NCBI GenBank assembly: GCA_965645245.1
Contig: OZ287082.1
Coordinates: forward strand, 248,001 to 312,000
Reading direction: 5' to 3'
Length of the DNA: 64,000 nucleotides
From: Massalongia carnosa
Taxonomy: Eukaryota
Made by a program: the position numbers and the translations under genes
Shown: positions 21,385 to 64,000 of the stretch, piece by piece
Position numbering within the stretch: the first letter of the stretch is position 1
Layout: each line of letters opens with the position of its first letter
Notes under the pieces: generated by a model
Databases searched by the model: none
The model's input: the letters and a program-made list of their open reading frames with translations, nothing else
What the model was told of the DNA's origin: nothing

Positions 21385-22157
21385 GGTAGGCATGATACTT
21401 ACTATGAGCGATGACCCCTGACATTTACTAATCATTAGATGAACAAAGCTCTTGCCGCTAAGCTGAGATCGCAAGGGTATATACCCATGAGTACCGCTAA
21501 AGGCACGAAGCTGTATGATCGGAAGGTGAAGACGCAGAACCGGCTAAACAGCTTGAAGGTCAGACTGCGAAGAAAAGGCCCGGAAGCAACATTTCCGAAA
21601 GGCAGATACGATCGCTTTTGACTCACAGTTCTCGAATCACTCGGCCCAGAAATCGCCCATGGGCGACAAACCTGTGAAGCCTCGTGAATACGACATTCCT
21701 GAGTGGGCCGAGGTTGCACGGTGGATATGCTAACCAGTGACTGGCCTCACAGATCGAGAACTGCTTAAACGAAGGATCAAGGGAGTTGAAGCCATGGCAG
21801 CTATGTGTCGTCGACAGGAGATTCGACGTCACCGCAAGCCAAAATCTCAAGTCAAGCAGGAAGAGCCAGACACACCTTCAGAGGATCCCAATGACGACAT
21901 GATAGAAAGCCCCTAGGACACTGTAAAAGATATTTTTTTCATTGGTATGCAAGAAATCCCAGTGGATCTTTTGTCTTGGTGATGAGCGTAAGCCTTATAT
22001 GGAGCGGATGTTTGAGTATAGCCGACAGATTAAGATGATGAACGAGGTGGACAAGCATTTAAGGAAGTTTCCACCCAACGACAAGGTCCAGCCAGTGTCC
22101 TCATCCGATGTGCAAGTCAGCGGCAATGGTTTTACCAGGCGTCATGGCTGTGAGTAG
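21385..22157 (+). pseudogene. Decayed C-terminal fragment resembling a DUF3435 tyrosine recombinase (Starship captain-like)
   Basis: Collinear peptide blocks in shifting frames: LAAKLRSQGY..AKGTKLYDRK..RLNSLKVRLRRK, FRKADTIAFDSQF, RRIKGVEAMAAMCRRQEIRR, LVCKKSQWIFCLGDERKPY..MMNEVDKHL and CPHPMC. These match my recollection of the C-terminal zinc-finger-like tail of DUF3435 proteins. The catalytic core is not seen. Confidence 0.6.
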
Positions 22158-22287
22158 CTTAGATCTGTTCCATAACATTTTATGTAGTTTCTAGAATAAA
22201 TCAAATACATTTTGTACCTGACCCTAAGACAAGTAGTAACGGAAGGGAGAGGCGTTTTATTATCCTAAAGCTTTTTGACTGCCGAAC

Positions 22288-24777
22288 TCACCCTTCAACG
22301 AGAGCCCGTGCGACAGAAATTTTCGACTTCTTGCCCTTTTTGGTCCTTTTATACCCACTGTCCGGAGCCTCTGGAGGGATGGCAGGAGCAAGAATTTCCT
22401 CCTCGAACACGATCTCACGCTCGGGTCTTTCAATAGTTGGGCGCCTTACGGATTCGAATGAAAGTCTAGACGCCTCATCAGAGTCATTTGACTCATCGCT
22501 TGCAGAGTCATTGTTGAACTCGGAATCGGATTGAGTTGCGCCATCATCTGCACCTACCCAGGATATAAGCAACTACTGAAATGGAACAGGCAGGGGCCTG
22601 CCTTACCAAGGAGTCTAACGCCGATGAAGCGCTTACAGGTATCAGAGCCTTTAGTGAGGACGTCAAGCTGCTTGATTAGTTGTCCACGCTGGGCACGGTT
22701 CTCCTCGGATTCACCAGCCATGCTCGTCACGAGCTCGGCTGACATAGCAGAGACAGCTACGGGAGTGAAGAGACCGCCGAGTGGGGAGATGAGCTTCGCT
22801 TCGATTACTTCGATGGCGATGTCGTCGATGAAGCGTTTCAAGGCAACCTATAATCACACGATGGGGTTAGTAAGGGAGATAATGGAAGTAGGGGCAGGAT
22901 ATAAATAGAGAGTTGACCTTGTAATAAGCCTCCATACAATCTAAAGCTTCGGAACAGGCGAAGCGATTCATGTCTGGTTCTGTACGTTGCGCCAAAGCGG
23001 TGACGAGTTGGCGGAGGTCATGGTTTTGACCACAATAATGTAAAGTTTCAAGGGAAGAGACGCCAAAGAATTGTTTTACGATCTTGGAGTATTCATTCTG
23101 GTTGCGTTCGTAACGGAGCTTTTGGAGAGTTTCCGTGAAATAATGGTTGTACGTGATTGGATGGCTTTTCTGATGGGGTGTTAGCAGCTCGGTGGTCTTC
23201 TCATGCAAAGTTTTCAAGAGTTGGTTCAGAGCAGGCTCGAAGATTTTTTGAAAGAGTGCTTTGGAGGTTGTGACATCAGCGACGTAGGCGGTTGCATGGG
23301 CAAGGAATTCCTTAACGGCCTTCCAGACTTTGTCAACGTGGCTCCGAGCGATGGCTTCCCAGGAAGTTGATTGCTCCAAGAACAAATCCGACACGATCAT
23401 GGGATTGAAGGTCCCTGGCAACTCTCGGCCCTTGGTCCTCTTCATCAGGTGCTGTATATGGTCAATGAATTTATCTCTGGTGATAGGAATCACATCTTTA
23501 GAGATGTGACTTGTGTCTTTTGAATCGGTGACCTCGCGGCAGTGCCCTCGTCTAGCAATGTTAACCGCAAAGTTTGAATTGAGGTTCTGCATCACAGCTC
23601 GTATACGTTTTTGATAGCCGGGTTCTGACTTGGCGTCTCCAAAGAACGGATCGTTATATGTACCATCCACAGCAGCTTTGACCAGAGATTGGAATGATTG
23701 ACTTAAGTGGAATAGGTAGAGCTGCTGCTCTGCTAAGGTAGCTCGAGGGTCCCCAAACTTATCCAACCGGCTGCGGCAAGCGCCTGACTTGATTTCAATC
23801 TCATCAATCAAACTGGGTAGCTCGGCAGCGATTTGTCCAAGCAAGACCTTGCTGAGCCTACTCCGTAACTTTTCGACGCCTAAGAGCGACCGAGACATGT
23901 CTCCCCATATCCCTTGGGAGAAGAATTCCTCTTCCTTGACATCGCGATCCGCTAATGACCACTCTCCTGTTTCGGAGTCCATGTTTTTCAATACATGCCA
24001 CCCAAGACGGAACTCCACGTCCTGGTTTTTGGCAAGAGAGACGTACATGGCTTCACTCTCGGAACCTGCAATCAAAGTATCAGGCTTTGTGATAACACCC
24101 AATGTCCGATTACCCTTTTTATCAGCTGCACGGGCGAGCTTCAACACGATTTGGTTCGAAGCATCATTCTTTGCCGAGACCACGGCGAGAATGATACTTC
24201 TCGGTTCTTTCATATAGGATTGAACGACATCTTGCACGAGCTCAACATCGGAAGCAGACTGCTGTTTTGTTTCGGAATGGATGAGTCCAGGTAGGTCCAC
24301 AATTGTCAGGTGAGGCCGATCAGGACCCGAGACCTCCACTCGAAGGAGGTCTTTCGAGAAAGCTTTGCCATGGGTTGAGATTCCCATAGCCGCTTTCGCG
24401 TTCTCAATCAAATTCGGAAGCCCTTCGAAGCACTCCAGCTCTTCGTGAAAGCTGCTGAGAGCAAGTTGTTCGGACTCACTGCGAGCTTGATGCGGGACGA
24501 TCGACACGCTTACACCCATTTGCGACGTCTTGCGGAGGACTAATTCTGTCGGAAATCGAGTGCTCAGGTTGCTTTTGACAGGAAAAGATACCCCAGAAAT
24601 TGCCTCCAGCACGGAGCTCTTTCCAGACGACTGGTCGCCGCATACGATGATCTGTGGCAATGAGACATAATGACTAATGCCTTGCGAACGGAGACAGTCT
24701 ACGGAGTCCAGCAAATCTAGTTGATCTTTGGAACCAAACCCATTTAGGGCATCTGTCTGGAACGATGTCAACCCCAT
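22288..24777 (-). CDS. Dynamin-like (Mx-like) GTPase, 3 exons (24777-22918, 22847-22607, 22553-22288), apparently intact
   Basis: G1 LPQIIVCGDQSSGKSS, G2 STRFPTE, G3 DLPG, G4 TKPD, stalk GRELPG, GED-like YYKVALKRFIDD. Introns 22917-22848 and 22606-22554 keep the frame. Confidence 0.92.
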
Positions 24778-26147
24778 TTTGAATGTTGACAGTTGAGGTA
24801 GATTTGATGAAGATAGGATTGAAGGCGGGAAGACCAGAAAGGTGATAAGCAAAGTTGCAAACGCATTAACCCGCACCGTGGAAATACAGGCTCCAACGCA
24901 AAGGTGTGGTAGCACAAGTTAGCTTCTTTCCATTCTGATGCCGAGAAGTGAGTCATAGGAGAAGAGAATAACACGTCGCATTTTAGGTAAATAGTATGGT
25001 TGGGTAGGATAATGCTACAGCTCGGCCAGATGTATACTAGACGTGGGTCCATGACTCTTGGAAGAGCTATCATTGGGTGCAAGCTGCACTGGGCGCTTTA
25101 GGAATATGCCCCTCTTGCTCAATTGGTTCACCGACGCGGGACCCTGAAACATCTTTCTCCTATACTTTTACACCCGCTACAACCCCTATGCAGGAGGCTT
25201 CTGGCTTCATCTAACGGAAACCACCCATTATGTTCGGGGAAGCGGATGATCTGCAATGGAGTCTGGACGAAAGTGGCAACCAATCGGTGCAGTCTTAATG
25301 ACTAATTAGTTCTTAGTCACCAAGAAGTTCTTAGCATTACGTTCTCAGCACTAGTTATTCTATTGAATTGAACTGGGACTCACCAATTCTGATACTTCCC
25401 GCTGCACTGACCAGAAAGCTTGCGCAAGTCAGCGAGCCATGCTCGAAACCCTGCTTATGGAGATACGCGAGTCCCTCTAACACCTACCTCGGTCAACTTG
25501 CTGGTCCAAGATAATTCATATGTAGTTACCTCTTTTCAGTCTTGACCGTAATATGCTGTACTTTGAGCGACTTTAAGGTATTGTACGGTCGGGAGTACGG
25601 GAGCAATGAATGAGCGATTAATGACCAGTGATCTATGACAGACGCAAGGGATTCTTAGTAGCAGTCAAGCTTAGTGTTGGGCGTAAGGGTCGGAGACAAT
25701 CAATAAGGTTTGACGGAATTAATTCGAGTATATTCGAAGCTGGGACACATTGAAACGAAAATTCGTTCTTGGAGTTTTGGTGGTTCTGCTTATGAGGACT
25801 AAATGTTATGGCTTGTTGCTAGAATGTGTTGAGTCGCTCCGCAAGTCGCTTTGACAGGCTCTTCCTTTTCTGCCATACCAACCAAATGAGGTGGGCGTTG
25901 TGAGCTGGTTCCTGGGGCGAAACGGCGTTGGCCAAGTGCTTCGCCATTTCGGTCGCATCACCTTCCATCTGCAACCCCCTTCCTGTGCTATGTGTAGGTA
26001 GCGCCTGCATTCCGGTTGGCATGAGGTATCAGAAGCTTTTAGAAGGACATTAACACACGAGCTGGGCGAAATGTTCGACGAGTGTAATAAATTATTTGCG
26101 CTTGCGTCTCCTCGTTGTTTGTAAGATACAAAGAGCGAATGCCCGAC

Positions 26148-27142
26148 CTATCCCAAACTCCCCTCTCCGCTGGCTATCTTAGCTATAGCCTCATCGAAAG
26201 CCTCAAGGATAGGTTCATATAGCTTCTCCGGATCCGGCGGGGTTCCAGTAAACAATCCATCCTTATATGGGAAGAGGATACCCCGTATCTCTTGACACAA
26301 AGGCTTAAGGTGATCGAATATTGAAGGAAATTCCTCCAAAATGTCCTCAAACCCGTCAACACCCATATCGCCTCGTTTACTTCGAGCGATATCATCATAA
26401 TCGCCCGTGTACCACTTCGTTAAAATGCTTTTCCTGGGTCTATCCACCAACTTGCACCCAAATTCCCTTTCCCACGCACGACGAGCGCAGATCCATAGAA
26501 GCACATAAAAGAATGACTCGAGGTCATGCCGATAGGTATGAGCGACTCTGCGTAGCACTTCAATCGCCATAAACTCCATTGTGCCTGTCTGATGCCGTGC
26601 GCCGGTTCGCCCGCCACCGACTATTTTCGCAAGATCTACATCGATCAGCATCCCCGTGAAGCCATTGGCCTGCTTTGGATTGGTTATTATGATGTTGTTT
26701 TCCGAGATGTCTCTGTGCAGAATAGATCCTTCCAAGTACAAAGATCTATGCGCCTTGATCGCATCACGAAGTGCCATTAACAGCTATAGGATCGAGTAAA
26801 AGTCTTTGATTGCTCGTCCGGCCGTCGACATAATTAAGCAGCCGAACACGCGATTGTCGAATGATCTGTCGCTTGGGCCACAGAAACTCGAGGCTTGTGT
26901 ATTTTCAAGGGCTTGTGACGATTCGTTTTCTTGAGATAGGTCTGATCTTTGGCTGTTGGATCTCGACCGCTTCGAAGACTTTTCTTCGCTTTCCTCGGAT
27001 TTTCGTTTCCTTGTACCGGCATTTCCCGGGGCTTGCGATACTTCGTACTCCTTGCATGACTTCGACTTTTGACTGATGGATACGGGCTCATTAAGCAACT
27101 TTCCTTCGTGGTCCACAGACTTCGGCCCTGACCGTTGAGCAC
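26148..27142 (-). pseudogene. Fungal-type protein kinase (FunK1/Pkinase_fungal), 5'-truncated with an in-frame stop
   Basis: LRDAIKAHRSLY..ILHRDISENNI..GMLIDVDLA..TGTMEFMAIEVL..HTYRHDLESFFYV. TAG at 26784-26786 separates in-frame ORFs 26784-27116 and 26148-26777. The upstream part is replaced by a gag fragment. Confidence 0.88.
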
Positions 27143-27520
27143 ATTGTAGTGCTCAAACTCCTCAATAGACTCGGCAGTTCATTCAACACCTACCTCACCA
27201 TCCTGAACGAACAAGCCCGGCGGGAGGACAAATTCCCGGCGTTGGATGACTTACCAGAAACCTGGAAGACGAGGAGGCTCGTATGCGCCAGGACCCTGTC
27301 GCCGTAGCTAACATGCTGAAGACAAAGGGTAAGAAGAACCCCACCGAAGAGGGTAAGAACAAATGCAAATGCTGGGGTTATAATCACTCCGGAAAATGCA
27401 GGCATAGCAACGCTACATGTAGGAAGTGTAGTAAGATTGGCCATCTGGAACGCGTTTGTGAAAGCAAAGAAGGTAATGAAACCTCAAAACCCCAAATAGT
27501 CTGTGCAACTATCATAGTGA
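27143..27520 (+). mobile_element. Copia-type gag fragment
   Basis: IVVLKLLNRLGSSFNTYLTILNEQAR and zinc knuckle CRKCSKIGHLERVC. No LTR attached. Confidence 0.65.
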
Positions 27521-27557
27521 CAGAGGGTTGGCTGCCTATACCTATAATATTATTAAT

Positions 27558-27651
27558 AAATGCACCTAATTATTTAGTATGGGGAGGTGGCTTGTAGCTA
27601 GTCCTAATTTGGAATGATTTTCGCTGGGGGGACGGTGGGGGAGTCTTCTCG
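27558..27651 (-). mobile_element. Isolated MULE family 1 terminus (matches 12443-12544) abutting the Copia D LTR
   Basis: AAATGCACCTAATTATTTAGTATGGGGAGG...GGGGGAGTCTTCTCG, with a short deletion relative to the 12544 end. Confidence 0.85.
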
Positions 27652-30600
27652 ATAGAATAGAGCTTGGTCTGCGGACTATTGTGCCTTTTGGTCGGGAGGA
27701 CAGGTGGCGCAATGGTAGAAATCTATTCACTATCTCGCTTCGTCACACTTTGCCAGGTACCTCCCGGGGCTCATGATGGATGCCCATATTGATGGTGGCC
27801 TCATCATCTAACATCCAACACTCCCATTCAGCCATCTTGAGACTATCCGGATATTTTTGCCTCTTTGGGTTTATCCCATGCCAAGCATTGACTAAAAGTC
27901 CTCAAAGGGTTTAGCGGCCAGTGGCTTTGTAAGCCCATCAGCCACCAATCTCTGTGGTAGGGATAAACTTGATGCTTACCCTTTCCCAATTCAACCACCT
28001 CCCTGATCCAATGCCGTTTGATTTCGATGTGCTTGGTTCGACGGTGGAACTCGGGGTTTTCAGCCAATGCAATTGACCCTTGATTGTCCCCTCGAAGTAG
28101 GTCAGGGGTGTCCTTCTTCCGATATCCTAACTCTGCCAGAAATCGCGCGCACCAAATTGCCTCTTTAGCTGCTTCCGTCAGGGCCATATATTCGGCCTCG
28201 CAGGTGGATAGGGCGACGGTAGGTTGCAGCTTGGAATAGTGAGAAATTGGGGCGCCTGCTAACAAAAACGTATAGGCCCCGGTCGATTTTCTCCCATCTT
28301 TCGTTCCAGCATAATCGGAGTCCGAGTACCCTACAGTGTCATCCTCGGTGTCTCTTCTGAACACGAGGCCTTCGTTTAAGGTACTGGAAATATAGCGCAT
28401 AATTCGCTGGAGGTATTTACAATGAAGTGGCCTGGGTTCGAACAATATCGGCTCAGGACTCCCACTGCATAGGCGATGTCGGGGCGTGTATGCATGGCTG
28501 GCCACATCAGCGAGCCCACCACCGACTGTTACCAGGTAATTGTTTCCTTGTCGGCCTGGTCATCCGACGGCATGAGTGTGTTTCCGGCACCGGAGTCCAT
28601 AGGGGTGGAAATGGATTTGCAATCGAGTATGTTAAATCGATGCAGCACCTTCTTCAGATAGGTTGTTTGCCGGAGAGTTATGACTGATTTTTCGGTGTTG
28701 ACGTTCACCTCAATTCCCAAATAGTGGGAAACTTCTCCCAAGTCCGTCATGCGGAATCGAGACTTAAATTCGTGTTGCAGCTGCTGTAATTTTGAAGTAT
28801 CTTTTCCGAAGATGAGGAGGTCGTCAATGTAAATCGCTATGAACATATCGTCCGAAACGAAGACTCCATAGTCGGAATTTTTCGTTTAGACACCATCTTT
28901 TGCAGAAAATCCTGCAAGGTCTGATACCATACACGAGGGGATTGTTTCAGGCCATATAGGGCTTTTCGAAGTAAGCAGACCTTGTCCTCCCCCTTTTCAA
29001 ACAAGGTGGGTTGTATGACATATATAGCTTCATCTAGGAAGCCATATAGGAAAGCAGTCACCACATCCATTTGATGAATGGTTAGGCCTTCCTTTTGTTT
29101 ATAGCCATGAACTACCCATCTTGCTTTATATTTCAGTACTTTTCCCGTCTCTGTCTTTCTTTATTTTGAACACCTAGCGACCTAGCGACCGGTGATCACA
29201 TTTCGATCGAGCGGTGCTGTTTCCAGTGTCCATGTTTCATTTTCCATTAGGGATTGATACTCGGCCTCTATGGCCTTTTTCCATTGTTCCCAGTGGGGTG
29301 AGGACACTGCCTCCTTCAGAGTCAAAGGTTCATCGAGGCCCTCGTTGTCCTCGCCTATTGCCAGGGTAGCCAGCACCCGTATCATGTGTTCGTGGGATTT
29401 TGGGACCTGGTCTGACCTATATAGATTGATGATGGGCCGAATGTTCTCCAGCGCTCTTTGGCTGGGGACCCTTATTCGTCCAGACCTCCGAGGCTCGATG
29501 GGCTGGCGAGGAATGTCCTCCACTTCATCGGAGTCATTCTCGCCCCCATTCTCCTCGGCTTGGCCTCCTCCCGAAGCATCTACTCCCATTGGTTGGAGCA
29601 TTATTCGTGGTGCTGGTGGGGCCATGTCTTGTTGGACTTCCGGACTTCTCGATATTTCAGAGCTCGGAGTTACTGGAGATAACGAACTTGGATGTCCGAC
29701 CTTGTTTTCATCAACGAAGTCGTCTGGATCATCAAATAAACCATCATCGTCCTGCTCCCATGGAATGTCGGCGAGGTCCCAGGCATTTTTGTCCTTGAGA
29801 TCATATGCATTGCCTTCATCGACAGTGATATCGCGACAAACATGGACCTTTCCGGTAAGAGGATCGTAGATTCGAAATTGATTGTTTCCATCGTACCCGA
29901 CAAATATTCCCTGCCAGGAACGGTCATCCAGCTTCTTTCTTTTCTCTTTTGGGATGTGTACCCACGTCCTTTCCCCGACCATTCTCATGTGGCCGAGGAA
30001 GGGTTTCGCATCGTTCATGCGTTCATAAGGAGTGACCTCGTCGACCCCGGGACATCTATTCTTAATGTACCCGGCCGTCTTCAAAACCTCCCCCCAAAGG
30101 GATTTTTCTTAGCTTTCATCATGGACCGGGTGGGGACCATGAGGGTATAATTTTGCCTTTCGGCCTTCCGATTCTGTTCTGGCACATTTGGTGCCCGGGC
30201 CTCCCATTGGATTCCTTCCTTCTTCAGGAATTCCTGGAAATCGCCACTGGTGTACTCCCCTCCTCCATCAGCTCGAAGACTCTTTATTTTCTTTCCCGAT
30301 TGATTTTATATCCATGTTTTGAACTGCTTGAAACATTCGAAGGTTTTCAACAGATAAACTCACACTACCCCGGAATAATCGTCTTTTATCGTAACATAAA
30401 AGCGTTCGCCAAACCTTGTCAGCGGGAATGGTCCCCCAAGATCGCTATGCAGTAGGTCCAGAAATCCTGTTGCTCGGGTCCTTGGGGTGCGATTTATTTT
30501 CCTTTGTTGTCTACCCATCATGCATGGGCCGCATACTCCTTTCGGTATGGGTCCCTCGATGGTGACTCCTTTGGCCAAATGGTTTAATTTTAGGAGTTTG

Positions 30601-31292
30601 GGGTAGCTGAGGTGGCCGAGTCGTTCGTGCCATGTTTGGATAGGGGCCTTTGACGAATTTGTGGTGGCGAGGGCCCGTAGTGGTTGTATGCAAAACATAT
30701 TGGTCGTTTATTGTTTTGGTCAGTCCAACCACCCTTTCTTTGTATATCAGTTGGGCGGGTTTGTCATCCGCCCTTAGGTACGTTGATATGCCCTTCTTGC
30801 CGAGTTGTATTGTGCTGATGAGGTTGAATTTTAGATCGGGGGCGAAAAGGATGTTGGTTAGGATGAGGTCCGTTGCGCTTCCATTTCCATCGTTCACTTA
30901 TAGAAGCAGGGAACCTCTTCCTTCCGTTGATAACACCTCTCCGGAACCTGTTTCCAGGTGGTTGTGTTCGATCCGAAAGGTCCCCTTCTTGAAAAGGGTT
31001 TTATTGTAAACAATGTGCGCGGTGGCACCGGAGTCGATCAATAGGTCGTGGGTGATTTTGGGGCCTCGGTACAGATTTGCCAGGCAAATAAGCGGTGTTT
31101 TCTGGGTCATTGTCCGGAAACATTCCCTTCGTAGACCGCACTTCTTCTCTCCCTTATCTTTTTCTTTGCTATGGCCCTCACATCAACGTCCCTGGATGCA
31201 CGTTTGCAAAGGGCTATAGCGAGTTTATCGTCGTCTCATCGTCTTCCTCCGAGTGAGAGTGAAATCTTTATCTCCTGGGAGGAGGGAAAAAC
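27652..31292 (-). mobile_element. Ty1/Copia element D, 5'-truncated and degenerate; partial 3' LTR at 27652-27820
   Basis: Protease LLIDSGATAHI, integrase WHERLGH..CGPC, RT IYIDDLL, RNase H YSDSDYAG. PPT GAATGGGAG followed by TGTTGG at 27820 on the minus strand. Many frameshifts. Confidence 0.9.
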
Positions 31293-32439
31293 TAGATTTC
31301 GTCGCGGGGGTGTTGATTTGCTGCATGCGGCCGCACATCAATCTATTGATTTTCATAAATCAATAGAAAATTTGCATAGAAGGGAGGGATACGCTCGTGA
31401 ATTCGCCAAATTCACTGCTATTTTCAATAAAAAATGGCAGGATAAGGAGCTGGCGAGGCCACTTATCCCTACAACTTTCCCCGACGAAATCCGACCGAAG
31501 GACAATCTCATGTATAAAAAGAGTGGGAGTCGCCGGCGGGCTTACACTGGCCGTGAGGCAGCTGAGGCAGATGAAGCTACGCAGCGACGTGCTAAACGTA
31601 AGGACTCGATTGAAGAAGGGAGGAGAAGAAGGCATGAGGATGAATTGCGGGCAGGCGGTGAAGACAAGGGTATGATTGATGATAAAAAACCCACGATATC
31701 AGCAAATCGATCGATGTAGCGCGGCTAATATTCGGTATAGATTCCGGAGATGCTATCATCGTATCTGACGACGATGACCTGTAATATATAGCAACTTAGC
31801 CTACCCCCGATCCTCCACTCTCTCTGAATGAGAATGATGATTTTATCCCTCCATCCCCGGCATCTTCTTCCGATTCATTTGAAGATATTGATGAAGTGCT
31901 GGCGAAACATAGCCAAAAGGCTCTTTCCCAAACGGTTCCCTCTCCAAAAGCTCCTTCCCTTTATAGCCTCAGTCAAAAAAACATCCGCGCTAGCCAGCTA
32001 CCATCCACATCGTCTGCAACAACAACACGAGGGTCACGGGGTGTGGTAGCCAAAAAATCGAAGGCTCAGTTGGAGTTGGAGTCTCAGCAGAGGGCCGACC
32101 AAGCGGCCAAACAAGCAAGGGCTTAGGAGAGGAAAAACGCAGCTGCAAGAAAGGTTGCTAAGACTATGAAGCCTAGAAAGGATGATGTTTCGCAATTGAG
32201 TGATGCATTTTCGGAATTGAGATCATCGCAATGAGTGGTAGGAGTAGTAGTAATAGTAGTAGTATGAATAGATGGGGATTTTTCAGAATGCGGGGCTAAG
32301 CTAAATCAGCTAGAGGAAGCTTGCGGAGAGACGGTGGACGTGCACATATTTAGTATGGGGAGGTGGCTTGTAGCTAGTCCTAATTTGCAATGATTTTCGT
32401 TGGGGGGACGGTGGGGGGGGACTGTCCTGAGTCTTCTCG
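31293..32439 (+). mobile_element. MULE family 1, 3' fragment with TIR; inverted relative to the 5097-12544 copy
   Basis: Reverse-complement homology to 10725-11710 and 5097-5248 without the Copia A insertion (empty site ..GATTTTTCAGAATGC..). Ends GTCTTCTCG. Confidence 0.9.
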
Positions 32440-32568
32440 CCCTACAATGACCACCGTTTTGCCTGTTGCCGACATGGAGGGCTTGGTGGGAGAAAGTCCT
32501 TCGTATGGTTTGTAATGAAAGGTCTCGGTAAAGGAGTGGGTCATGTCAAGTGCAGACATATCTCTCAT
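32440..32568 (-). pseudogene. 5' fragment of a short-chain dehydrogenase/reductase cut by the MULE terminus
   Basis: FTETFHYKPYEGLSPTKPSMSATGKTVVIVG matches a common fungal SDR N-terminus. It breaks at the Rossmann glycine motif exactly at the TIR, and the remainder is not in the window. Confidence 0.7.
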
Positions 32569-38967: not shown

Positions 38968-38989
38968 TACCCCCCAGCTAGCGCCCTAA

Positions 38990-54900: not shown

Positions 54901-56165
54901 GATCTGGACATCGAGCAACTGGATATAATGACAGCTTATCTGAACGGTCTCATCGATCAACTCATCTATGTCCACATGCCGAAAGGATATGACACAGCTG
55001 GCATGGTGTGCAGGCTGAATAAAGCCCTGTACGGTTTGAAACAGTCTTCGCGTCTCTGGTATGAACGACTATCAGCTTTTTTATTGAGCAAATTAGGACT
55101 GGAGAAACTCCACGAAGATCATAGCATCTTCGTCACACCTCAAGGGATAAAAGGACCCATTGTTACCTCTTTCGTTGACGATTTGAACATCTTAGGTCCA
55201 AAGGGTTCCCCGATGATCACCGAAGTCAAGAAACAGCTCAAGCTAGCTTTCAAGATTGTAGACATGGGACCAATCAGCTACTATTTAGGCCTCAAAGTCG
55301 AACGAGATCGAGTCAACAAAACCATAAAGCTATCTCAACCAGCCTATATCGAGAAGGTATTGGAAAGATTTCATATGCAAACCGCAAAGACAACAAACAC
55401 TCCCATGCGAGAAGGCTGTCTCTCATCAATGAATCTCAGGCATCCGACAAGGACATAAAGCAATATCAAACCATGGTTGGATCCATCATGTTCGCAATGA
55501 TAGAAACCAGGCCAGACATAGCTTTCGCAACGTCCGTAGTCAGTCGCCATGCAAAGAATCCAGGCAAAACACATATGGAAGCGGCCAAACACATTCTCAG
55601 ATACCTTAGCGGTACCAAGAATAGAGGCATCACCTTCGGTGGGGGAGATTTATTTATACAAGGATATTCTGACTCTGACTGGGCCGGAGACAAAGAGCAG
55701 CGAAAATATACCTCGGGTTATGTGTTCATGCTGAACAATGGACCAATAAGCTGGTGTTCCAAAAGACAAACGACCGTCGCATTGCCATCAACCGAAGCAG
55801 AGTATATGGCACTCACCTTAGCAGCAAAGGAGGCTACATGGCTACGTTTACTGATGACTGAACTCGGATTGATGACTTCTGATGGCGGATCCCCGACAAT
55901 AAACGTGTTAAGAGGAGAAGGCACAATTGCATTGAAAGGCGACAACCAAAGCGCCATAGCACTGGCCAATAATCCCGTATTACACTCCAGGACCAAGCAT
56001 ATCGACATTCAGCACCACTTCATACGAAACGAGGTGCTAGAAGGAAGAATCGACCACACCTATGTTCCGACCGAAGACATGTTTGCAGATGGACTGACAA
56101 AACCCCTTACGCACGTCAAGTTCTTCTCCTTTATCAGACAGCTCAACATGGACAAACAGACATGA
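51916..56165 (+). pseudogene. gag-pol: Copia C gag (51916-52833) and pol (52834-56165, stop at 54021, frameshift near 55430)
   Basis: Protease WLLDSAADMHV, integrase WHARLGH..CHAC and ENGVAER, RT FVDDL, RNase H YSDSDWAG. Confidence 0.92.
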
Positions 56166-56459
56166 GAGGTTAAGAAGTTCAATCACGGTTGAATCTAGGA
56201 TGGAAACAAGTACTGGTAGGACTTGAGGGGGGTTGTTGAATATCCAATTCCTACCAGCACAATGAACACCTATCAGTTCAATGAACATAGCACCTACGGC
56301 TGCCCTAGATTAACAGATCATCTACGGAAACCGTAGTCGCCGCATTAGGCTTAGTCCTAAGATAAGATAAGATCATCTCGCTTAGAAGGGTGACCAGTAA
56401 TAGGAAAAGATTGCTGCATAGCAACTCTTCATCCTTAACATAACGGTCTTTATTATTAT

Positions 56460-59224
56460 GGGTGCGGATACGGGCACACCCTATTAGCTACCTTAACACC
56501 CTACTTTGCTACCTTCACACCCTACTTGGATACATTCACACCCCCGAAAAAGTAACCGCAAAAGGGAAAGTTTCCGCCCCTTTCCCTTTCCCAATTAGGG
56601 TAAGCGGCGCGAAATTTTGCCGCACCTGAAATTTCGCTGCATCTTTCGCAAAATTTCGTCGCATCTTGGAATTTCGCCGCAACCTTCTTTCTTACTCCTG
56701 CAGAATGTCATCTTCCGATGACACGTTCAATGGTTTTGATACCGAATCCAATTCTTCCGCTCCCAATCTCATCATCTTCGAAAGAGTCGCATCTGCCTCC
56801 CCTCCGCCAGCTTCTCCCCCTCCGCCAGCTTCTCCCCCTTCGTCAGCTTCAGCACCTCTTGCTGCTCTGGAAAAAGGACAATCCTTTGAGTCTTTGGAAG
56901 ACTTGATTCAACGAGTCAATGAGCATGCTGGCCCGCGCGGTTATGCAATTGTTCTCGCTCGTACGAAGAAGAATATGGATGGAAATACGCGCAAAGCTTG
57001 GTTGATTTGCGATCGAGGAGGCAGAGTGAGAGAACCTCGCGGACAAAGTCGTCGTCATACTGCCAGCAGAGCCATTGCTTGTCCCTTTTCAATGATTGCG
57101 ATTCGGGAAAAAGAGTCTGATATCTGGTTTTTGGAACTGGTCAAATCGGAACATAATCATGCCTCGAGTTTGGCAGGGGCTCATCCAGTGCATCGAAAGA
57201 TGGCTATTACCGCCGAGGTAAAAGATGAGATATCGCGTCAGCTAACTGTTCAGACTGCTCCATCGAAAGTGATTTCGAGTCTGCGCATACCTGATCTTAC
57301 CACCGGAATCAATTGGGACGATCCGGCCAATCCTCGAGTCGTCAATCCCATGATCAAACCTCGAGACATCTACAATCTCAAGACTCAACTTCGTCGCGAG
57401 GCTTTGGGACCGTTGACTCCCATACAGGCATTGATTCGAGAGCTTGATCAGAGCGACGATTGGTTGTATCAAATGCAAAAGAATGAGGAGGATCGCAATC
57501 AGATAACTCATTTATTCTTTGTAAAAGGAAGTTCCCGAACTTTTTTAAAGTCTAACTATGAGGTTCTGATCATGGATTGCACTTATAAAACCAATCGCTA
57601 CAAAATGCCTCTTCTGATCATCAGCGGTCAAACCGCATTGCATACCAATTTCTATGTGGCTTTTTGCTTCATGGCCAGTGAGACAAAATTTGCCTAGACC
57701 TGGGTTTTGAGGCAAGTCAAAGCTCTATATTTGCAAATGGAGCTTCCAGATCCGACCGTCATTGTCACCGACATGGAAAGAAGTCTGATGCTTGCTCTTC
57801 GTGCGCAATTTCCTCGTACCAATCATCTGCTTTGCATTTGGCATATCAATAAGAATGTCGTCGCCAATTGCAAAAGACAATTCAGCAAGGAAGAATGGGA
57901 CACCTTCTTTGCGGAATGGAAAGCGATAACTTACGCCTCATCGGAAGTCATACTATGGGAGCTCTGGGGTCAGTTTTCGATCAAATACAAGGACTATGAG
58001 GTAGTGGAATATCTGGCTACCACCTACATTACTCATGTTCAGCATTTCGTAAGATGCTTTACCAATCGAGTACTGCATTTTGACACCACCACTACTTCTC
58101 GAGGTGAGGGAGGGCATGCAGTGATCAAACGTCAATTAGGAACGTCGACCGGAGATCTGAAAACGGTGGTGGACGGAATCAGTCTTTTATTGATGAACGA
58201 GTATCATAACTATTGGATCAAATTGAATGAGGACAAAACGCGATATCCGCTAGATCTTCGGAAATCAATTTTTCAGCAAATATCTCCATTCATCAGTACT
58301 AAGGCAATCAGAAGAAATAATTCTCAGTACGATTTACTGACCGGGAGACCGACGGCTCTGCCAGCATGTACGAATTCTTTTACAACCAGCACCGGACTGC
58401 CTTGCAGTCATAGAATTCAGGAATGATTGTATGGCGAAGGAAGTTTATTGCTGGAAGACGTTCATCCACATTGGAGATTTGAAAGAAACGCTCCCGCCAA
58501 TGATTTCAATCTGCTGATAGTGGAAGAACCAGGCATTATTCGACCTCGTGGACGACCTTCGGGAGCGGAAAACAGAAGAACTCAAGCTTTCAATGCCTCT
58601 ACGGGTCGACAACCTTCTCAATTCGAGCGAGTTATTATGGAGACGGCAGAAGATGAAGAGGTGCCAGCGGATGTGGAACGGGTCATTCGTCGGGCGGATC
58701 CAGCCCCGACAAGGGCGCGAGGCAGAAGAGCTCGAGCTGATCAAGCTGATCGAGGTGGTGGAGATGCGCGGGGGACGCGGGGGACGCAGGATGCGCAGGA
58801 GACTCGAGGGACTCGAGGTGCGCGAGGGATTCGAAGAAGTGCTCGGAATGCGCGAGAGAATCAGGGAGGTGAGGGAGATGTCAGAGATGGAGACGGCGAA
58901 AATGAGGGTTGAATGAAGCAGCGATAGATCAGGCAGGAAATGAGGTAGCTAGTCTGCTTTAAGTTTAGTAGCTTGAAATCAAGGTGCGAATGGCCAACAT
59001 GGTGCCAATCGACTCCGATTCCTGAGGTTCGAAAACATGGAATTTCTTCCTTCCCCATCTCAGGCGACAGAATTTCGCACCGCTTACCCTACTCGGGAAA
59101 GGGGGGGCGGAAACTTTTCCTTTTGCGGTTACTTTTTCGGGGGTGTGAATTTATCAAAGTAGGGTGTGAAGGTAGCAAAGTAGGGTGTTAAGGTAGCTAA
59201 TAGGGTGTGCCCGTATCCCGATGC
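56460..59224 (+). mobile_element. Mutator/MULE family 2, full length, inserted in the Copia C 3' LTR
   Basis: TIRs over 110 bp (GGATACGGGCACACCCTATTAGCTACC...). 9-bp TSD TATTATTAT at 56451-56459 and 59225-59233. Confidence 0.93.
56705..58912 (+). pseudogene. MULE transposase (FAR1-like DBD + MULE DDE) with two in-frame stops
   Basis: CDRGG..CPF..HNH, IMDCTYKTNRY, IVTDME, LLCIWH, TSRGEGGH, GLPCSH. Three same-frame ORFs separated by TAG 57695-57697 and TGA 58424-58426. Confidence 0.92.
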
Positions 59225-59367
59225 TATTATTATATAGCTATATAACAATACAGTGCACCCTGGCTATAACGATCTTGGTTATAACGGTAATCTGGTTATA
59301 GCGATTTGACCTTGTGGAAGCGATTATTTTGTTAGACAATTAACGATAACTTATTTGTTCCGATATC

Positions 59368-59475
59368 GTTAGCATACTTAGTCCGCAGACCAAGCTCTAT
59401 TCTACTATAACTGGGACTCCTGCTATGTTCGCTGTAGGTCCTGCCGTCCGCACCACGCTTGGTCGAACCGTTACA
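59368..59475 (+). mobile_element. Probable short solo LTR (108 bp) inside the pogo element
   Basis: GTTAGC...GTTACA flanked by ATATC on both sides. Shares 26 bp with the Copia D LTR. The first T of the canonical TG is missing. Confidence 0.55.
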
Positions 59476-60486
59476 ATATCAGCCAGTAATGGCCTCAGGG
59501 CCTCCATTTCATCTCCTCCACTTCGTAAAAAACGTCGCGCTATCACCGATGCGGAGCGAAAAGCTCTTTGTGATTACTATTTTGATGAATCAAATGGTAG
59601 ACCTCCCCATATGCAACTTCGTCAGTGGTTCGAGCAGCAGTTTCATCATTTTCCCTCTCAATCGACCATATTCGAGTCACTTTCTTCCACTTTCGCTCAC
59701 TTGGACAATAAGGTGCAACGTTTAGAGGTCAGAAAAAACCGTGCAGCACAATGGCCAGATCTCGAAGACGTTTTATTCGAGTGGCAGCAACGAATGATGC
59801 GAAAAGAAGCTACAATAACAGGAGAAATTCTTAAAGAGATAGCCGCTATCTTTTGGAGTAAGCTTCCTCAATATGCTGACGAAGAACAACCCAAATTCTC
59901 TACTGGCTGGCTAGATGGCTTCAAAAATCGACATCAGATCAGTAAATAAAGAAGACATGGCGAGGTCGGTGCCGTTGATAATATAGTCGTAGAGACTGAG
60001 CTGAAGAATATACGTGAGCATCTCAAAGAATATGATAATCGCGATATTTTCAATATGGATAAGACAGGTCTTTTTTAGAAGATGAGCCCGGATGATACGC
60101 TTGCCACTCAGCAAACACCTGGAGGTTAACACGAAAAAGCCAGAATATCTGTCAATTTCGCTACAAATCTGACCGGCACGGATAAACTTCCTCCATAGTT
60201 CATTGGAAAAGCCGCAAATCCTCGCTGTTTTAGACGATCTGGCATTAACATCCACAATTTCCGAATAGCCTGGCGTTTCAATCAAAAGGCCTGGATGACT
60301 GGACGAATTTTCAAAGAATATTTGCGTTGGTTTGATAATCGAACGACTGGACGCAAGGTAATTCTTTTGATAGATAGATTTTCAGCTCATAAAGCAGGTG
60401 ATTCAGCTATAACGCGATTTGATGAATCATTCACTCACTGAGTTAACAGGAATCGATTTATTGTATAAAGAATTTTCCGCTGGCCT

Positions 60487-60976
60487 TGTCATGGAATTAC
60501 CTCGCACCCTCCCACGTTTCCTGATCGGGTTAGTATTTAACAGGCTCTCTTGCCGTGAAACCTGCACTGCATGTTGAATAGAACCGTGGCCCGTTATTCC
60601 GAACTATCCTGAAACCTCGCCCCATGTGTTCAGACGTTCTTCCGCTGCCTTCAGTGCACTCCCAAACTCCTATATCCCGAATCCAATCTCAACGTCTCCA
60701 CTATCTAAGCCTACGACTGGGATTGCCCAGCAGAGAGAGATTGCTTCGGCATGGAGAAAGGCGGAACAGGTCAAAGCGATCATGGTTAGGAAATTAGAAC
60801 AGGAACAGAGATGAGGGCAAGTCAAGAATAGGGGAGTTGGAAGCCATGGCTATAAAACCTATGTGGTTTCTCAGGTGTTTGGAGCTCTTCGTCGGACGTC
60901 TTGTACACTATCCCTAGACCTAGCTTTCTTAATAGTAACTCTTGTATATCTCCCTATCTGGACCTTGTCCGTGACA
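60487..60976 (+). mobile_element. Solo LTR (490 bp) inside the pogo transposase
   Basis: TGTCATGGA...TCCGTGACA flanked by GGCCT at 60482-60486 and 60977-60981. The transposase resumes GLTNTKILFLPANAT. Confidence 0.9.
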
Positions 60977-62550
60977 GGCCTTACAAACACGAAAATTCTT
61001 TTCCTTCCTGCGAATGCAACCTCTCTATATCAACCTCTCGATCAAGGCATTATTCATGCCTGGAAGGCTCATTATCGAAGAAGATAGCTGCGTTAAATTA
61101 ATTCTTAATACGAAAAAGACATTGATCCCACTAAAACAATGAATGTTTTACAAGCTATTCGTTGGGGAGTTGACGCATTGGAGCAGGACGTTACTGAGAC
61201 AACAATCAATAATTGCTGGGTGAAATCTCGGGTATTGAGTGCTAAATATGGTCCAATGAACAGAGAGGAGGCGGAGAATATGGGCTGGCATCAAGAGGTG
61301 AAGGAGGAGAATTCTTCATATGACGCTGTCATTTCGAGTATGGCTCACCAAATGCATCATCTGGTTCATCAGGATAGAATCGCAAAGGCGATATCTATTA
61401 CTCAGTTTTTAAATCCACAAGAGGAGGATGTTTATGACACCGAGGAAGTCTTGATCGACGACATCGTCAATTCGTACAGCAGAGAGGAAAGAGCTTATGA
61501 GACCAATAAGGAGGATATAATCATGTCTCGAAGTCGTCATAATAAGGTTATTTTGGCTCTACAAACTCTTCGTTTGTATGGAGAATAGCAGGATGAAGGT
61601 GATAGTGAGCTCATTTCACGTATAAATCGACAAGAAAGGGTTATCAGAAAAAGGACCAAGCAGGGGCTTAAACAAACCACAATTGATAGCTATTTTACAT
61701 AGTAAATAGGGGGAATTCAAGCTTTCTTTGGGTATAACGATATTCTCCTTATAACGATTTGACGTAATAGAAAATCAAAATCGTTATAGCCAGGATGTAC
61801 TATAGTCATATACCTATTTCAACACTATAGCCCTACCTCGATTAGGCCACGTTCGTCAAACTAATTACTATTACATGATTGGATCGGTTGAGACTATCGC
61901 ATAGCTGTCTTCCCGTGCACCCCCTGCAGACGTATGCCACCGCTTTATGTCTTGTAGGAAGCTATCCTAAAAAATGCTTGAAAATCAGAACGAAATTTGT
62001 TTTTGTATCAAGATAAGATGAACGATAATGCAGTAAAATTCAGATTGAAATCTGCTTTTGAATTAAAGTAAGATGAATATTAATACAAAAAAAGTCAGAC
62101 TGAAATCTGTCTCAGAATTAACGTCATCCTCTGAAATGTCTTAAAATCTTCGAATAAAAAGTCTGTCAAGTGTTTAAAATCTTTAAAAATTGTCTTTGAT
62201 ACATGCAATCTGACAAAAGATCTTTTGAGAATTTTGCCTATGAGGCACGAAGGCCAGCAGGACTTTAAAGTTTTTCTATGGGGCACGTAGACCAGCAGGA
62301 CTTTGTAGTTTGCCAATGAGACATAATAAATCCGAATCTTTACAACTATTTCTCATGATTATCAATATGAGAAGTCTTGAATAATGTTATGCATGAGATA
62401 ATATTTCATGATATAGATACGATGTTTAATTTTGCATAAAGATAATATCATACTGTTATTGAAAGAGAATTAAAGTCCATTCTGCAGCACACGTTTCGCA
62501 AACCTACTTTAATTCTCATCCCCAAATCGTCATATTCTTCAACTATCGTT

Positions 62551-64000
62551 TCACTCTAGCCACGCGTTCGCCGCCGATAGAATATCCCGCAACGTCCCGT
62601 TATCATTATCCTCATCTCTCATAGCCCGAAAATCAAAACCACGACGACGACAATGACGATCGCGATTCAGAAACATCGCCCGCTCGAAATCGATCAGCAT
62701 GAGGCGATCCAGTTCGCGGTTCCAGAGGACGTTGGGCGGGCGCAGGTCTGCTTGATTGATTCCTGCGAGTGTCACTTCGGCGACGGTGCGGCGGAGTTCT
62801 GCTTGGAAGGATGGTCTTGTTTTGACCTTCTCGTAAGATTCGGCCACGTCTCCTCCCCAGGACATGAGGAGCATGTGCACGATTCGAACCTCGACGTCGA
62901 GATGGTAGGGTTTGGCGAGGTCAATGTTGCCAAGATAGACGGGAACGGCCGCGCCTTGAAGATGTTCCAGATGGCGGTACACTCGCCCTTCATGTCGCAA
63001 GTTGGATACGAATGCGCGGATGGTGCCTTTGGCCACGAAGACATAGCCGTGCGAGGTCAATCGGATTCGGAACAATGCCCCTCGAGCACCTCGTTGGCCT
63101 AAGGGTTCGCAGTTCCGGTCAAGGGTACGGTCCAGCTGCCTGTTAACCAACGCCGTGAACTCTGGCAGGCTGATGGCGTGGCGATCGCTCTTTCTCCGAT
63201 GCTTGGACACGTTTGGACAGCGCTCGTCCAGCGTGGATTTCTGCCGGATCCCGAGCAAGCACTTCTGACTGCAGTACCGTTGTCTTTGGTGCTTGCCTTT
63301 ATCCTGATCCTTGCACAGAGACTGTCGCTCTTCCTCATTGGATCTATTTGACAGCTGCCGCACTTGTCCGTTTTTTGGATTCTTCATGGAGGACTCTGTC
63401 TCGGATAAATCCGACGATGATTCTTCAGGAGCAGGATCGATCTTAGGGGGCTCGCAGCGCTTCCTTCCTCGCAGCCGAAGCTTGATCGGAGTTCGATCGG
63501 AATTCTTCGAAATCTTGAGTCCACCGTTGGCCTTGAAGAGCGAACTAGGCGTTTCGACACGTTCTCGATCTTCGTCCGATTGACTCGAAAATCCGGCATT
63601 CTTTTCCCATCTTTCCAGCTCATCCATCATTTTGTTCCGCCAACCCTGGTTCCTCTCGGTGAACTGCTCCGACTGAAACGCCATGAGACACAGGCCAAGC
63701 ACCTGAGCAACAGCAGTGCGTTGCCAGTCGTAGCCATTCCTGTCCACGTCCTCGTTCGGGATGGCCAAGTGATAATACACCGTGGCTGGGTTTTTGGCTC
63801 GCACCCAGAGGAAGACGAGTGCAACTCCTGTCGTGATGTAACTATACTCCAACCCGTTCTCGATCATATCCGAGTAAGCCTGCGTGACCGCGCATCCTAT
63901 GCGCCAGTCCGCTTTATGATCTTTCTGTTCCTGCTCCGTCGCAAATATGGACACGTTGATGACATCGTTAGCTACGTTCATGGGCCGCAGACGTGTTTGC
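62551..64000 (-). CDS. Spok-family-like protein (nuclease-region C-terminal half, Cys cluster, C-terminal kinase); 5' end lies beyond the window
   Basis: AVTQAYSDMIENGLEYSYITTG..FLWV..VYYHLAIP..TAVAQV, Cys cluster YCSQKCLLGI..DERCPN..H, kinase GARGALF..VAKGT..HEGRVY..LQGAAVPVYLG..DLRPPNVLW..LIDFERA. The frame stays open to the window edge (QTRLRPMNV). Confidence 0.8.
   Translation of the reverse strand, partial: QTRLRPMNVANDVINVSIFATEQEQKDHKADWRIGCAVTQAYSDMIENGLEYSYITTGVALVFLWVRAKNPATVYYHLAIPNEDVDRNGYDWQRTAVAQVLGLCLMAFQSEQFTERNQGWRNKMMDELERWEKNAGFSSQSDEDRERVETPSSLFKANGGLKISKNSDRTPIKLRLRGRKRCEPPKIDPAPEESSSDLSETESSMKNPKNGQVRQLSNRSNEEERQSLCKDQDKGKHQRQRYCSQKCLLGIRQKSTLDERCPNVSKHRRKSDRHAISLPEFTALVNRQLDRTLDRNCEPLGQRGARGALFRIRLTSHGYVFVAKGTIRAFVSNLRHEGRVYRHLEHLQGAAVPVYLGNIDLAKPYHLDVEVRIVHMLLMSWGGDVAESYEKVKTRPSFQAELRRTVAEVTLAGINQADLRPPNVLWNRELDRLMLIDFERAMFLNRDRHCRRRGFDFRAMRDEDNDNGTLRDILSAANAWLE

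What the first reader, a model, noticed from the sequence alone, without database searches (positions are those of the whole stretch)
21385..64000. Possible derelict Starship: captain-like relic followed by typical cargo
Seen: collinear frameshifted peptides at 21385-22157 resembling the C-terminal half of a DUF3435 recombinase on the + strand. To their right lie a dynamin-like GTPase, FunK1 kinase, SDR fragment, HeLo-ankyrin gene and Spok-like gene, and no housekeeping genes. Established: Starships carry the DUF3435 captain first, and NLR-like and Spok-like genes are recurrent cargo. Inference: this is the wreck of a giant transposon that lost its captain and accumulated nested TEs. I could not identify element boundaries.
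Basis: inference. Interest (0 to 1): 0.72.

Follow-up and report, generated by a model that had tools for sequence, protein, structure and literature searches.

The report
Starship captain scrap, accessory-like fungal chromosome
A small dead piece of a giant-transposon (Starship) recombinase gene really lies here, but it sits in the middle of a duplicated, transposon-choked patch of what looks like a dispensable chromosome of a lichen-type fungus, not at the head of one recognisable giant element; such wrecks are common, while the chromosome itself deserves a look.

Summary
The captain relic is real. Window 21442-22149 (+) aligns at 74-93% to the C-terminal end of DUF3435 proteins. It covers only about residues 544-775 of a 789-aa captain: no catalytic core, two stops, three frameshifts. 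Dynamin, FunK1, HeLo-like-ankyrin and Spok-like genes are confirmed; the SDR is a 40-codon stub without a Pfam hit. The single captain-first element from 21.4 to 64 kb is not supported. The relic is wedged 427 bp from a DUF6606 gene's start and 139 bp from the dynamin's stop. It lies mid-way in a block (window -646 to 38999) duplicated 159 kb away at about 98%, with an NLR and DUF6606 on its left and without the Spok-like gene. FunK1 and Spok-like genes are dispersed families. No other captain sequence was found in 640 kb of contig C16 examined, and no boundary was found. The lack of housekeeping genes is chromosome-wide: 0 of 157 core-family loci fall on C16 (1.96 Mb; 5.9 expected). Best reading: Starship-type debris reshuffled on an accessory-like chromosome of a probably lichen-associated fungus, which carries four near-identical Spok-like copies. 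Starship wrecks are known; the chromosome is the interesting by-catch.

The parts
3..3865 (-). NACHT-type NLR gene (SesA-like N-terminus, NPHP3_N/NACHT, DUF7791); runs off the left edge; inside the duplicated block, left of the relic
   Evidence: Pfam; start codon; 98% copy at C16:88294-93165
5249..10724 (+). Copia LTR element (322-bp LTRs 3.4% apart, AAATC target duplication) inside a TIR-bounded unit at 5097-12544; only a solo LTR in the sister copy
14193..21015 (-). DUF6606 gene, broken: start codon at 21015, 5' part to 20563, continued at 14921 after a Copia insertion (15056-20554); head-to-head with the relic, 427 bp away
   Evidence: Pfam PF20255 E 1.1e-17 and 3.7e-27; LTRs
21442..22149 (+). 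Captain (DUF3435 tyrosine recombinase) relic: internal piece matching residues ~544-775 of a 789-aa captain; 2 stops in the middle frame, 3 frameshifts; no catalytic domain; last ~15 codons also missing
   Evidence: further copies at C16:114979-115721 and C7:2386989-2387521
22288..24777 (-). Dynamin-like GTPase; three-exon model gives an open 788-aa product; stop codon 139 bp from the relic's end
   Evidence: Pfam; splice model; relatives
26148..27129 (-). FunK1 kinase, 3' part only, broken; member of a dispersed family with 92-95% DNA copies on C1, C3, C10, C14, C15
27114..32439 (.). Copia fragment and TIR-element pieces; 27547-31129 is inverted relative to the sister copy
32440..32559 (-). 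40-codon stub resembling the N-terminus of a fungal short-chain dehydrogenase, cut by a transposon end
   Evidence: translation; no Pfam hit; resemblance recalled
33001..35377 (-). HeLo-like N-terminus plus ankyrin repeats; four-exon model gives an open 721-aa product; found only in the two C16 copies
35759..38999 (.). 890-bp LTR-bounded mini element and a pogo-type DDE transposon; the duplicated block ends at 38999
40903..56448 (.). Triple nest: Copia containing a Gypsy element (40948-50536, LTRs identical over 318 of 318 bases) whose left LTR contains a PIF/Harbinger-type element (41159-43997)
56466..61812 (+). MULE transposon (56466-59218) and a second pogo/CENP-B-type transposon (59241-61812)
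62323..64000 (-). Spok-like gene: open 749-codon frame (stop at 62551, start about 800 bp beyond the window's right edge) in a 2.6-kb unit present four times on C16; outside the duplicated block

Best explanation
The window is a mosaic of Starship-type debris on a transposon-rich, core-gene-poor (accessory-like) chromosome, not one element with readable ends. Inferred history: (1) a Starship of the captain clade seen in lichen fungi once lay here; (2) deletions removed its 5' end with about 70% of the captain, including the whole recombinase domain, and also the captain's last codons, leaving a 0.7-kb scrap between a DUF6606 promoter and the 3' end of a dynamin gene; (3) this junction is old, was copied to C7 and decayed; (4) Copia elements inserted; (5) a block holding NLR, DUF6606, relic, dynamin, FunK1 and HeLo-like-ankyrin was duplicated 159 kb away by a captain-independent rearrangement, and each copy then gained or lost its own transposons; (6) FunK1 and Spok-like genes spread separately as dispersed families. 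The relic cannot mobilise anything. Shown: relic identity and extent, neighbours, copies, divergences, absence of core loci. Inferred: order of events, Starship origin of the neighbours, accessory status of C16.
For: Relic covers HMM positions 535-767 of 780 only; motifs I assign to the catalytic set lie at residues 181-481 of P0008, upstream of the relic's start at 544, and the tested captain HhpA has its Cre-like domain at aa 39-431 (PMC10104507 passages). Only 427 bp separate it from the DUF6606 start, too little for the missing ~540 codons. Duplicated block C16:88294-147132 versus window -646..38999, 0.7-3.6% apart in 5 segments; LTR pairs of three Copia elements are 3.4-5.4% apart. Control: another Starship family in this genome shares an edge about 1.2 kb upstream of its DUF3435 match, against about 22 kb here. 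No further captain sequence in C16:1-500,000 and 14 more 10-kb stretches, while the same HMM finds the C2 and C21 captains; none on C16 among 69 PF11917 matches. A 6.6-kb contig of a lichen metagenome from another study spans 20563-22261 with 92 differences and 40 gap letters. A run of organism C has the dynamin at about 95% with a loose end where the relic would be; the C16:724.8-kb paralogue also lacks the relic. 0 of 157 core-family loci on C16, while each of C1-C15, C17 and C18 has 3-15. For Starship ancestry of the neighbours: related captains on C2 and C21 have FunK1 (2 of 2) and an ankyrin gene (1 of 2) downstream; the dynamin tree mixes fungal classes.
Against: No boundary, direct repeat or empty site was found, so Starship origin of any neighbour is unproven. 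DUF3723, an auxiliary marker, is absent from C16 (0 of 9 matches); FRE and PLP were not searched. Among 32 metagenome loci of 37-53% identical captains the neighbourhood is not conserved: dynamin downstream in 2 of 32 (one a 62-aa hit), ankyrin downstream in 3, FunK1 upstream in 4, DUF6606 and Spok-like in 0 (many flanks are short). Only 640 of 1,962 kb of C16 were read; family searches score capped candidate lists (DEAD 42 of 203; P0008 57 of 67). C16 has a telomere array at the right end only and a scaffold gap at 138 kb, so it may be an arm rather than a chromosome. Presence or absence of C16 among individuals was not shown. In the control family three copies also share flank beyond the edge, so not all of its copies are captain-made.
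Confidence: 0.6

Rival explanations
1. One reading: one Starship began just left of 21442, lost its 5' end by deletion, and its cargo runs rightwards through dynamin, FunK1, HeLo-like-ankyrin and the Spok-like gene; the DUF6606 and NLR genes belong to the host region or to an outer element.
For: Relic orientation points into these genes; one 5' deletion would explain the DUF6606 junction; dynamin, FunK1 and HeLo-like-ankyrin keep their order in both copies; NLR and Spok genes are recurrent Starship contents (passages); nested Starships exist.
Against: The Spok-like gene is outside the duplicated block and has three more C16 copies with different flanks in two of them; FunK1 is dispersed; the relic is cut at its 3' end too, so the link to the dynamin is itself a junction; the dynamin occurs without the relic elsewhere; the whole contig looks the same.
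Confidence: 0.18
2. Stray scrap: the captain piece was captured as filler at a rearrangement on an accessory chromosome, and the neighbours never rode a Starship; they are simply the gene types that pile up in accessory DNA.
For: The relic is an internal piece cut at both ends, not at an exon edge; no DUF3723 on C16; no conserved neighbourhood in 32 related loci; NLR-like genes recur along C16 and near the C7 copy.
Against: The dynamin is 93% identical to a Peltula protein and groups at 100/100 with lichen fungi of two classes, which suggests a vehicle (class labels recalled; paralogy or MAG contamination not excluded); the genome is rich in Starships and related captains lead FunK1 and ankyrin genes.
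Confidence: 0.19
3. Assembly artefact: the two C16 copies are alternative haplotypes scaffolded in tandem, or C16 comes from a second fungus in the sample.
For: A scaffold gap lies inside the sister copy (C16:138035-138234); lichen samples hold several fungi (PMC13486527 abstract).
Against: In run X3 the three relic variants have similar contig depths (about 880, 920 and, by subtraction, 1060; the tool warns that depth is no copy number, and X3 is of the same study as the best holder). The window's PIF element is 99.4% identical to a copy among core genes on C2, so C16 shares a nucleus with the core contigs.
Confidence: 0.03

Closest known systems
'Derelict' Starship regions of Macrophomina phaseolina (10.1101/2021.12.13.472469; passages)
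   Same: Starship-type genes persisting after loss of the captain.
   Different: Those lack DUF3435 altogether but keep FRE, DUF3723 and OCH1 genes that group with Starship homologues; here a captain scrap survives, DUF3723 is absent from the contig, and no such phylogeny ties the neighbours to a Starship.
Starship remnants in Verticillium adaptive genomic regions (PMC12289983; passages)
   Same: Most captain-like genes (79%) lie outside bounded elements; regions rich in duplications and inversions; transposons with little RIP, as here (56 of 152 transitions at CpA).
   Different: There the regions were tied to reference Starships by synteny across strains; here no reference element is available.
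Tangerine and other lichen Starships (PMC13486527, abstract and sections 6, 8; Peltigera preprint 10.64898/2026.06.16.732702, abstract and passages)
   Same: Lichen-type host, over half nested transposons, NLR and ankyrin genes, truncated captains.
   Different: Tangerine has defined ends, an empty site, DUF3723 and PLP, and its short captain keeps the catalytic domain; this relic keeps only the tail. Captain family not assigned here; the paper's supplements were not seen.
Spok genes on Fusarium accessory chromosomes (PMC12693581, abstract and sections 15, 19; 10.64898/2026.10.04.756499, abstract)
   Same: Spok homologues enriched on core-gene-poor chromosomes, with Starships as a proposed route in: 7 of 17 Spok-like loci, and the 5 closest, lie on C16, C19 and C21 (my grouping).
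   Different: Host is probably lichen-associated, not a plant pathogen; dispensability of C16 and activity of these alleles are untested.

Membership tests
Starship captain (DUF3435 tyrosine recombinase) | Homology to DUF3435 proteins | tested here: met
   74-93% to PF11917-bearing proteins, E down to 1.7e-58; direct Pfam hit of the relic's frames 0 of 3
Starship captain (DUF3435 tyrosine recombinase) | Catalytic RKHRY set in an open frame | tested here: not met
   Relic starts at residue ~544 of P0008, after all candidate motifs (my assignment); stops and frameshifts
Starship captain (DUF3435 tyrosine recombinase) | Assignment to a named captain family | not testable with these tools
   No starfish family HMMs; nearest named full-length relatives are four lichen-group proteins at 41-52%
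Starship element | Captain is the first gene, near the 5' end | tested here: not met
   Copied unit starts ~22 kb left of the relic with NLR and DUF6606 first; control family edge ~1.2 kb from its captain. A deleted 5' end cannot be excluded.
Starship element | Terminal direct repeats or TIRs, and an empty site | tested here: inconclusive
   Both ends of the duplicated block abut smaller transposons and show no shared motif; no related genome to align
Starship element | Auxiliary genes DUF3723, FRE, PLP, NLR downstream of the captain | tested here: inconclusive
   DUF3723 0 of 9 matches on C16; NACHT NLR upstream only; HeLo-like-ankyrin gene downstream has no NACHT hit; FRE and PLP not searched genome-wide and not seen in the window
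Starship element | Presence/absence or new loci among isolates | tested here: inconclusive
   Junction shared with an independent lichen metagenome; dynamin without relic in organism C; short contigs only
Spok family | N-terminal coiled-coil repeat, nuclease domain, cysteine cluster, kinase domain (PMC6660238 passages) | tested here: met
   Repeat, C-x3-C-x13-C-x5-H-x6-H (x7 in the paper) and kinase-like motifs present; SPOK2_N clusters 0.97-0.99; no direct alignment to a Podospora Spok was made
Spok family | QxxxY nuclease motif | tested here: not met
   Absent in the window's copy and the C16:859-kb copy, present in the 362-kb and 509-kb copies and the C19 paralogue
Spok family | Killing and resistance activity | not testable with these tools
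   needs an assay
Fungal accessory chromosome | Few core genes, many repeats | tested here: met
   0 of 157 core-family loci, 5.9 expected, P about 0.002 if uniform by length; most long ORFs in 500 kb plus 10 samples are transposon or NLR-like, with a few metabolic genes
Fungal accessory chromosome | Dispensable: absent from some individuals | not testable with these tools
   Run search gave too few independent samples
Fungal accessory chromosome | A whole chromosome with two telomeres | tested here: inconclusive
   TTAGGG array at the right end; none in 1-400 kb

The most novel reading that the evidence does not exclude
Contig C16 (and probably C19-C25) is a megabase-scale accessory chromosome of a lichen-forming or lichen-dwelling fungus, built largely from wrecked Starships and held in the lineage by a small array of Spok toxin-antidote genes with naturally differing nuclease motifs. 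This would extend the Fusarium Starship-Spok-accessory chromosome model to a mutualist, with the dynamin as a cargo gene passed between lichen fungi of different classes.
Probability: 0.25. Interest if true: 0.72.

Novelty: new member of a known kind. Interest (0 to 1): 0.4.

Why it matters
As a Starship wreck it is ordinary: remnants are described in Macrophomina, Verticillium and lichen fungi. It is a useful caution that a captain fragment followed by cargo-like genes does not define an element when the whole chromosome is accessory-like. The by-catch matters more. Three searches (listings only, plus term checks in two papers) showed no paper describing accessory chromosomes in a lichen-forming fungus; the library lacks most subscription papers. 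A 2-Mb core-gene-free contig with four near-identical Spok-like copies would make the proposed Spok-based maintenance of dispensable chromosomes testable outside plant pathogens.

Tried and rejected
Direct Pfam scan of the relic's frames and of the three frames upstream of it: 0 of 6 hits. PF11917 genome search missed the relic, which keeps only the domain's last part in broken frames. First metagenome scan with a single protein: 0 of 77 stretches confirmed; the alignment scan gave 32 of 77, all too distant to show the ancestral neighbourhood. Search for the missing 5' part of the captain on C16: none in 640 kb; pieces on C13, C14 and C19 at 43-59% to P0008 were not followed. Ends of the duplicated block: no shared motif. 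Terminal repeats or target duplications around Spok-like and FunK1 copies: none recognised, so I do not call them autonomous elements. RIP as cause of decay: rejected, only 56 of 152 transitions at CpA and 107 of 259 changes are transversions. Rfam on the window and five loci: 0 matches, so no 5S rDNA target seen. SDR family hit: none. Two runs of organism B without the stretch and the small-share runs are not used as evidence. Earlier scan findings: none returned in 3 look-ups. Papers on DUF6606/3638/3645: 7 listed, none on Starships by title or abstract start. The extent of the multicopy control family was read over 10 kb at four loci only.
Full report
1. Setting. The window is G000:C16:248001-312000 of a 52.16-Mb, 25-contig genome. 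GC is an even 39-54% per kb. The host is a filamentous ascomycete, probably lichen-forming or lichen-dwelling. This is inferred: the four named full-length relatives of the captain come from lichen-group fungi, the named relatives closest to the dynamin do too, and the best holder outside the two coded organisms is a lichen metagenome.

2. The relic is real. The middle frame 21554-21937, stops read as X, found 4 proteins among 47 candidates (E 1.7e-58 to 3.4e-28; 50-79%), all with PF11917. Against these, four collinear pieces lie at 21442-21570, 21557-21937, 21936-22088 and 22096-22149, 74-93% identical. On a 789-aa captain (P0008) they cover about residues 544-775; on an HMM of eight family members, positions 535-767 of 780. 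The motifs I assign to the catalytic set lie at residues 181-481, and the tested captain HhpA has its Cre-like domain at aa 39-431 (PMC10104507, passages). So the whole recombinase domain is gone, and so are the last ~15 codons. The piece cannot drive transposition. The relic's own frames give no direct Pfam hit.

3. Its neighbours. On the left, head-to-head and 427 bp away, starts a DUF6606 gene (start codon 21015) split by a Copia element at 15056-20554; further left is a NACHT NLR. The missing ~540 codons cannot fit in 427 bp. On the right, 139 bp away, ends a dynamin-like GTPase with an open 788-aa splice model. Then follow a 5'-truncated FunK1, a 40-codon SDR-like stub without Pfam support, a HeLo-like-ankyrin gene with an open 721-aa model (N-terminal Pfam hit below cut-off), 25 kb of transposons including a triple nest, and a Spok-like gene. 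That gene matches SPOK2_N clusters at 0.97-0.99 and shows the repeat, cysteine cluster and kinase motifs described for Spok3 (PMC6660238, passages). About 72% of the flagged interval is transposon by my coordinates.

4. The unit that was copied is not captain-led. Window -646 to 38999 has a collinear copy at C16:88294-147132, 0.7-3.6% apart in five segments, with different transposon insertions, a 6.2-kb deletion and a 3.6-kb inversion. The relic is in the middle, about 22 kb from the left edge; the Spok-like gene is outside. As a control, a separate multicopy Starship family in this genome has a shared edge about 1.2 kb upstream of its DUF3435 match, although three of its copies also share flank. 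A third, 91-92% copy of the DUF6606-relic-dynamin-tail junction (1.8 kb) lies among transposons on C7. A 6.6-kb contig of a lichen metagenome from another study spans 20563-22261 with 92 differences and 40 gap letters, so the truncation is old; a contig of organism C holds the dynamin at about 95% with a loose end where the relic would be (4 of 23 listed runs were laid). A dynamin paralogue at C16:724.8 kb also lacks the relic.

5. Two 'cargo' genes are dispersed families. FunK1 has 92-95% DNA copies on five core contigs (40 of 51 candidates scored). The Spok-like gene sits in a 2.6-kb unit found four times on C16 at 94-97%; two copies belong to one larger duplication, two have their own flanks. 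Their presence near the relic is therefore weak evidence of shared carriage. The HeLo-like-ankyrin gene occurs only in the two block copies (2 of 2 candidates).

6. No captain and no core genes on this contig. The family HMM found only the two relic copies in C16:1-500,000 and nothing in 14 further 10-kb stretches (640 of 1,962 kb), while finding the C2 and C21 captains. None of 69 PF11917 matches (60 of 60 candidates scored) and none of 9 DUF3723 matches is on C16. Four core families gave 157 loci after grouping 256 matches: 3-15 on each of C1-C15, C17 and C18, none on C16, C19 and C22-C25, and 1-2 weak DEAD matches on C20 and C21. On C16 5.9 are expected (P about 0.002 if uniform; core genes cluster, and only 42 of 203 DEAD candidates were scored). 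Ten samples along C16 show mostly transposons and NB-ARC/TPR genes, with a few metabolic genes (P450, lactamase-fold, rhodopsin-domain), and a telomere array at the right end. Shared transposons (99.4% to a copy among core genes on C2) place C16 in the same nucleus. So 'no housekeeping genes' describes the chromosome, not an element interior.

7. What speaks for Starship ancestry of the neighbours. Related captains on C2 and C21 have FunK1 13 and 18 kb downstream and, on C21, an ankyrin gene. The dynamin is 93% identical to a Peltula protein and 88-90% to several lichen fungi; in a tree of 26 rows (22 named hits, 3 unnamed, the window; the other 95 listed hits left out) it falls in a 100/100 clade joining Peltula with Wetmoreana, Gyalolechia, Imshaugia and one Xylographa, while other lichen fungi fall outside (class labels recalled; paralogy and MAG contamination not excluded). 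A dynamin homologue is listed among Gaeumannomyces Starship cargo (PMC12134995, passage). Against: among 32 metagenome loci of 37-53% identical captains, dynamin lies downstream in 2, ankyrin in 3, FunK1 upstream in 4, DUF6606 and Spok-like genes in none.

8. Mechanism, committed. Shown: identity and extent of the relic, its neighbours, its three copies, the duplication and the census. Inferred: an old Starship lost its 5' end and most of its captain by deletion; the scrap became fixed between DUF6606 and dynamin; Copia elements inserted (LTR pairs 3.4-5.4% apart); the block was later duplicated without a captain (mostly under 2% apart); transposons, FunK1 and Spok-like genes kept arriving on an accessory-like chromosome. 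Decay was not by RIP.

9. Comparison and novelty. It works like the captainless Derelict regions of Macrophomina (passages) and the Starship remnants of Verticillium (passages), in a host type where Starships are now described (PMC13486527, abstract and two sections; Peltigera preprint, abstract and passages). It fails membership as a Starship element: captain not first, not catalytic, no ends (defining features from PMC11162782, passages). The relic is a new member of a known kind. The bolder reading links C16 to the Fusarium model in which Spok genes on Starships stabilise accessory chromosomes (PMC12693581, abstract and two sections; preprint abstract): 7 of 17 Spok-like loci, including the five closest, lie on C16, C19 and C21. 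Searches for accessory chromosomes in lichen fungi showed no such report in their listings. No supplements were read; those of the Tangerine paper may bear on the captain's family, and those of the bioRxiv preprints are closed. Interest 0.4.

Noticed in passing
G000:C16 whole contig; also C19-C25: No core-family loci on C16, C19, C22-C25 and only weak DEAD matches on C20, C21: the genome seems to split into 17 core contigs and up to 8 accessory-like ones of up to 1.96 Mb.
   Followed up: partly
L146:1987, L149:1829, L003:45 (C11, C7, C13) and about a dozen other loci: A separate multicopy Starship family: captain followed by a convergent NB-ARC protein with 126-bp repeats, copies 90-99% alike, shared edge about 1.2 kb upstream of the DUF3435 match; many captains carry stops. 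Only 26% identical in protein to the relic's family.
   Followed up: partly
window 62323-64000; C16:361911-365352, 508335-510881, 858712-861256: Four Spok-like copies; two are open frames, one is interrupted by the 890-bp mini element, one has stops. The QxxxY motif is present in two and absent in two. The window copy and the 859-kb copy end at exactly the same base at the 3' side with different flanks.
   Followed up: partly
window 26031-27129 and copies on C10, C14, C15, C3, C1, C19: FunK1 kinase behaves as a dispersed repeat (92-95% on five core contigs); no terminal repeats recognised.
   Followed up: partly
window 22288-24777: Dynamin-like gene unusually conserved across distant lichen fungi (93% to Peltula) with a tree that mixes classes; candidate horizontally moving gene.
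   Followed up: partly
window 40903-56448: Copia > Gypsy > PIF nest; the Gypsy LTRs are identical and its 1477-aa frame is open; the PIF is 99.4% identical to a copy on C2, so both moved recently.
   Followed up: partly
window 35759-36648, solo end at 4124-4242: 890-bp element with identical ~120-bp terminal direct repeats; a 99.3% copy interrupts the Spok-like gene at C16:363005-363896.
   Followed up: no
window 51020-51420: Eight copies of a 50-bp tandem repeat in the Copia leader.
   Followed up: no
C2:785-809 kb (L128-L130) and C21:380-404 kb (L133-L135): Two decayed captains related to the relic's family with cargo-like genes downstream; the C2 one abuts core genes about 25 kb away, so its ends may be findable.
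   Followed up: partly
P0012: A 99% identical dynamin is on record on a 2.02-Mb contig of another public assembly, a possible counterpart of C16.
   Followed up: no
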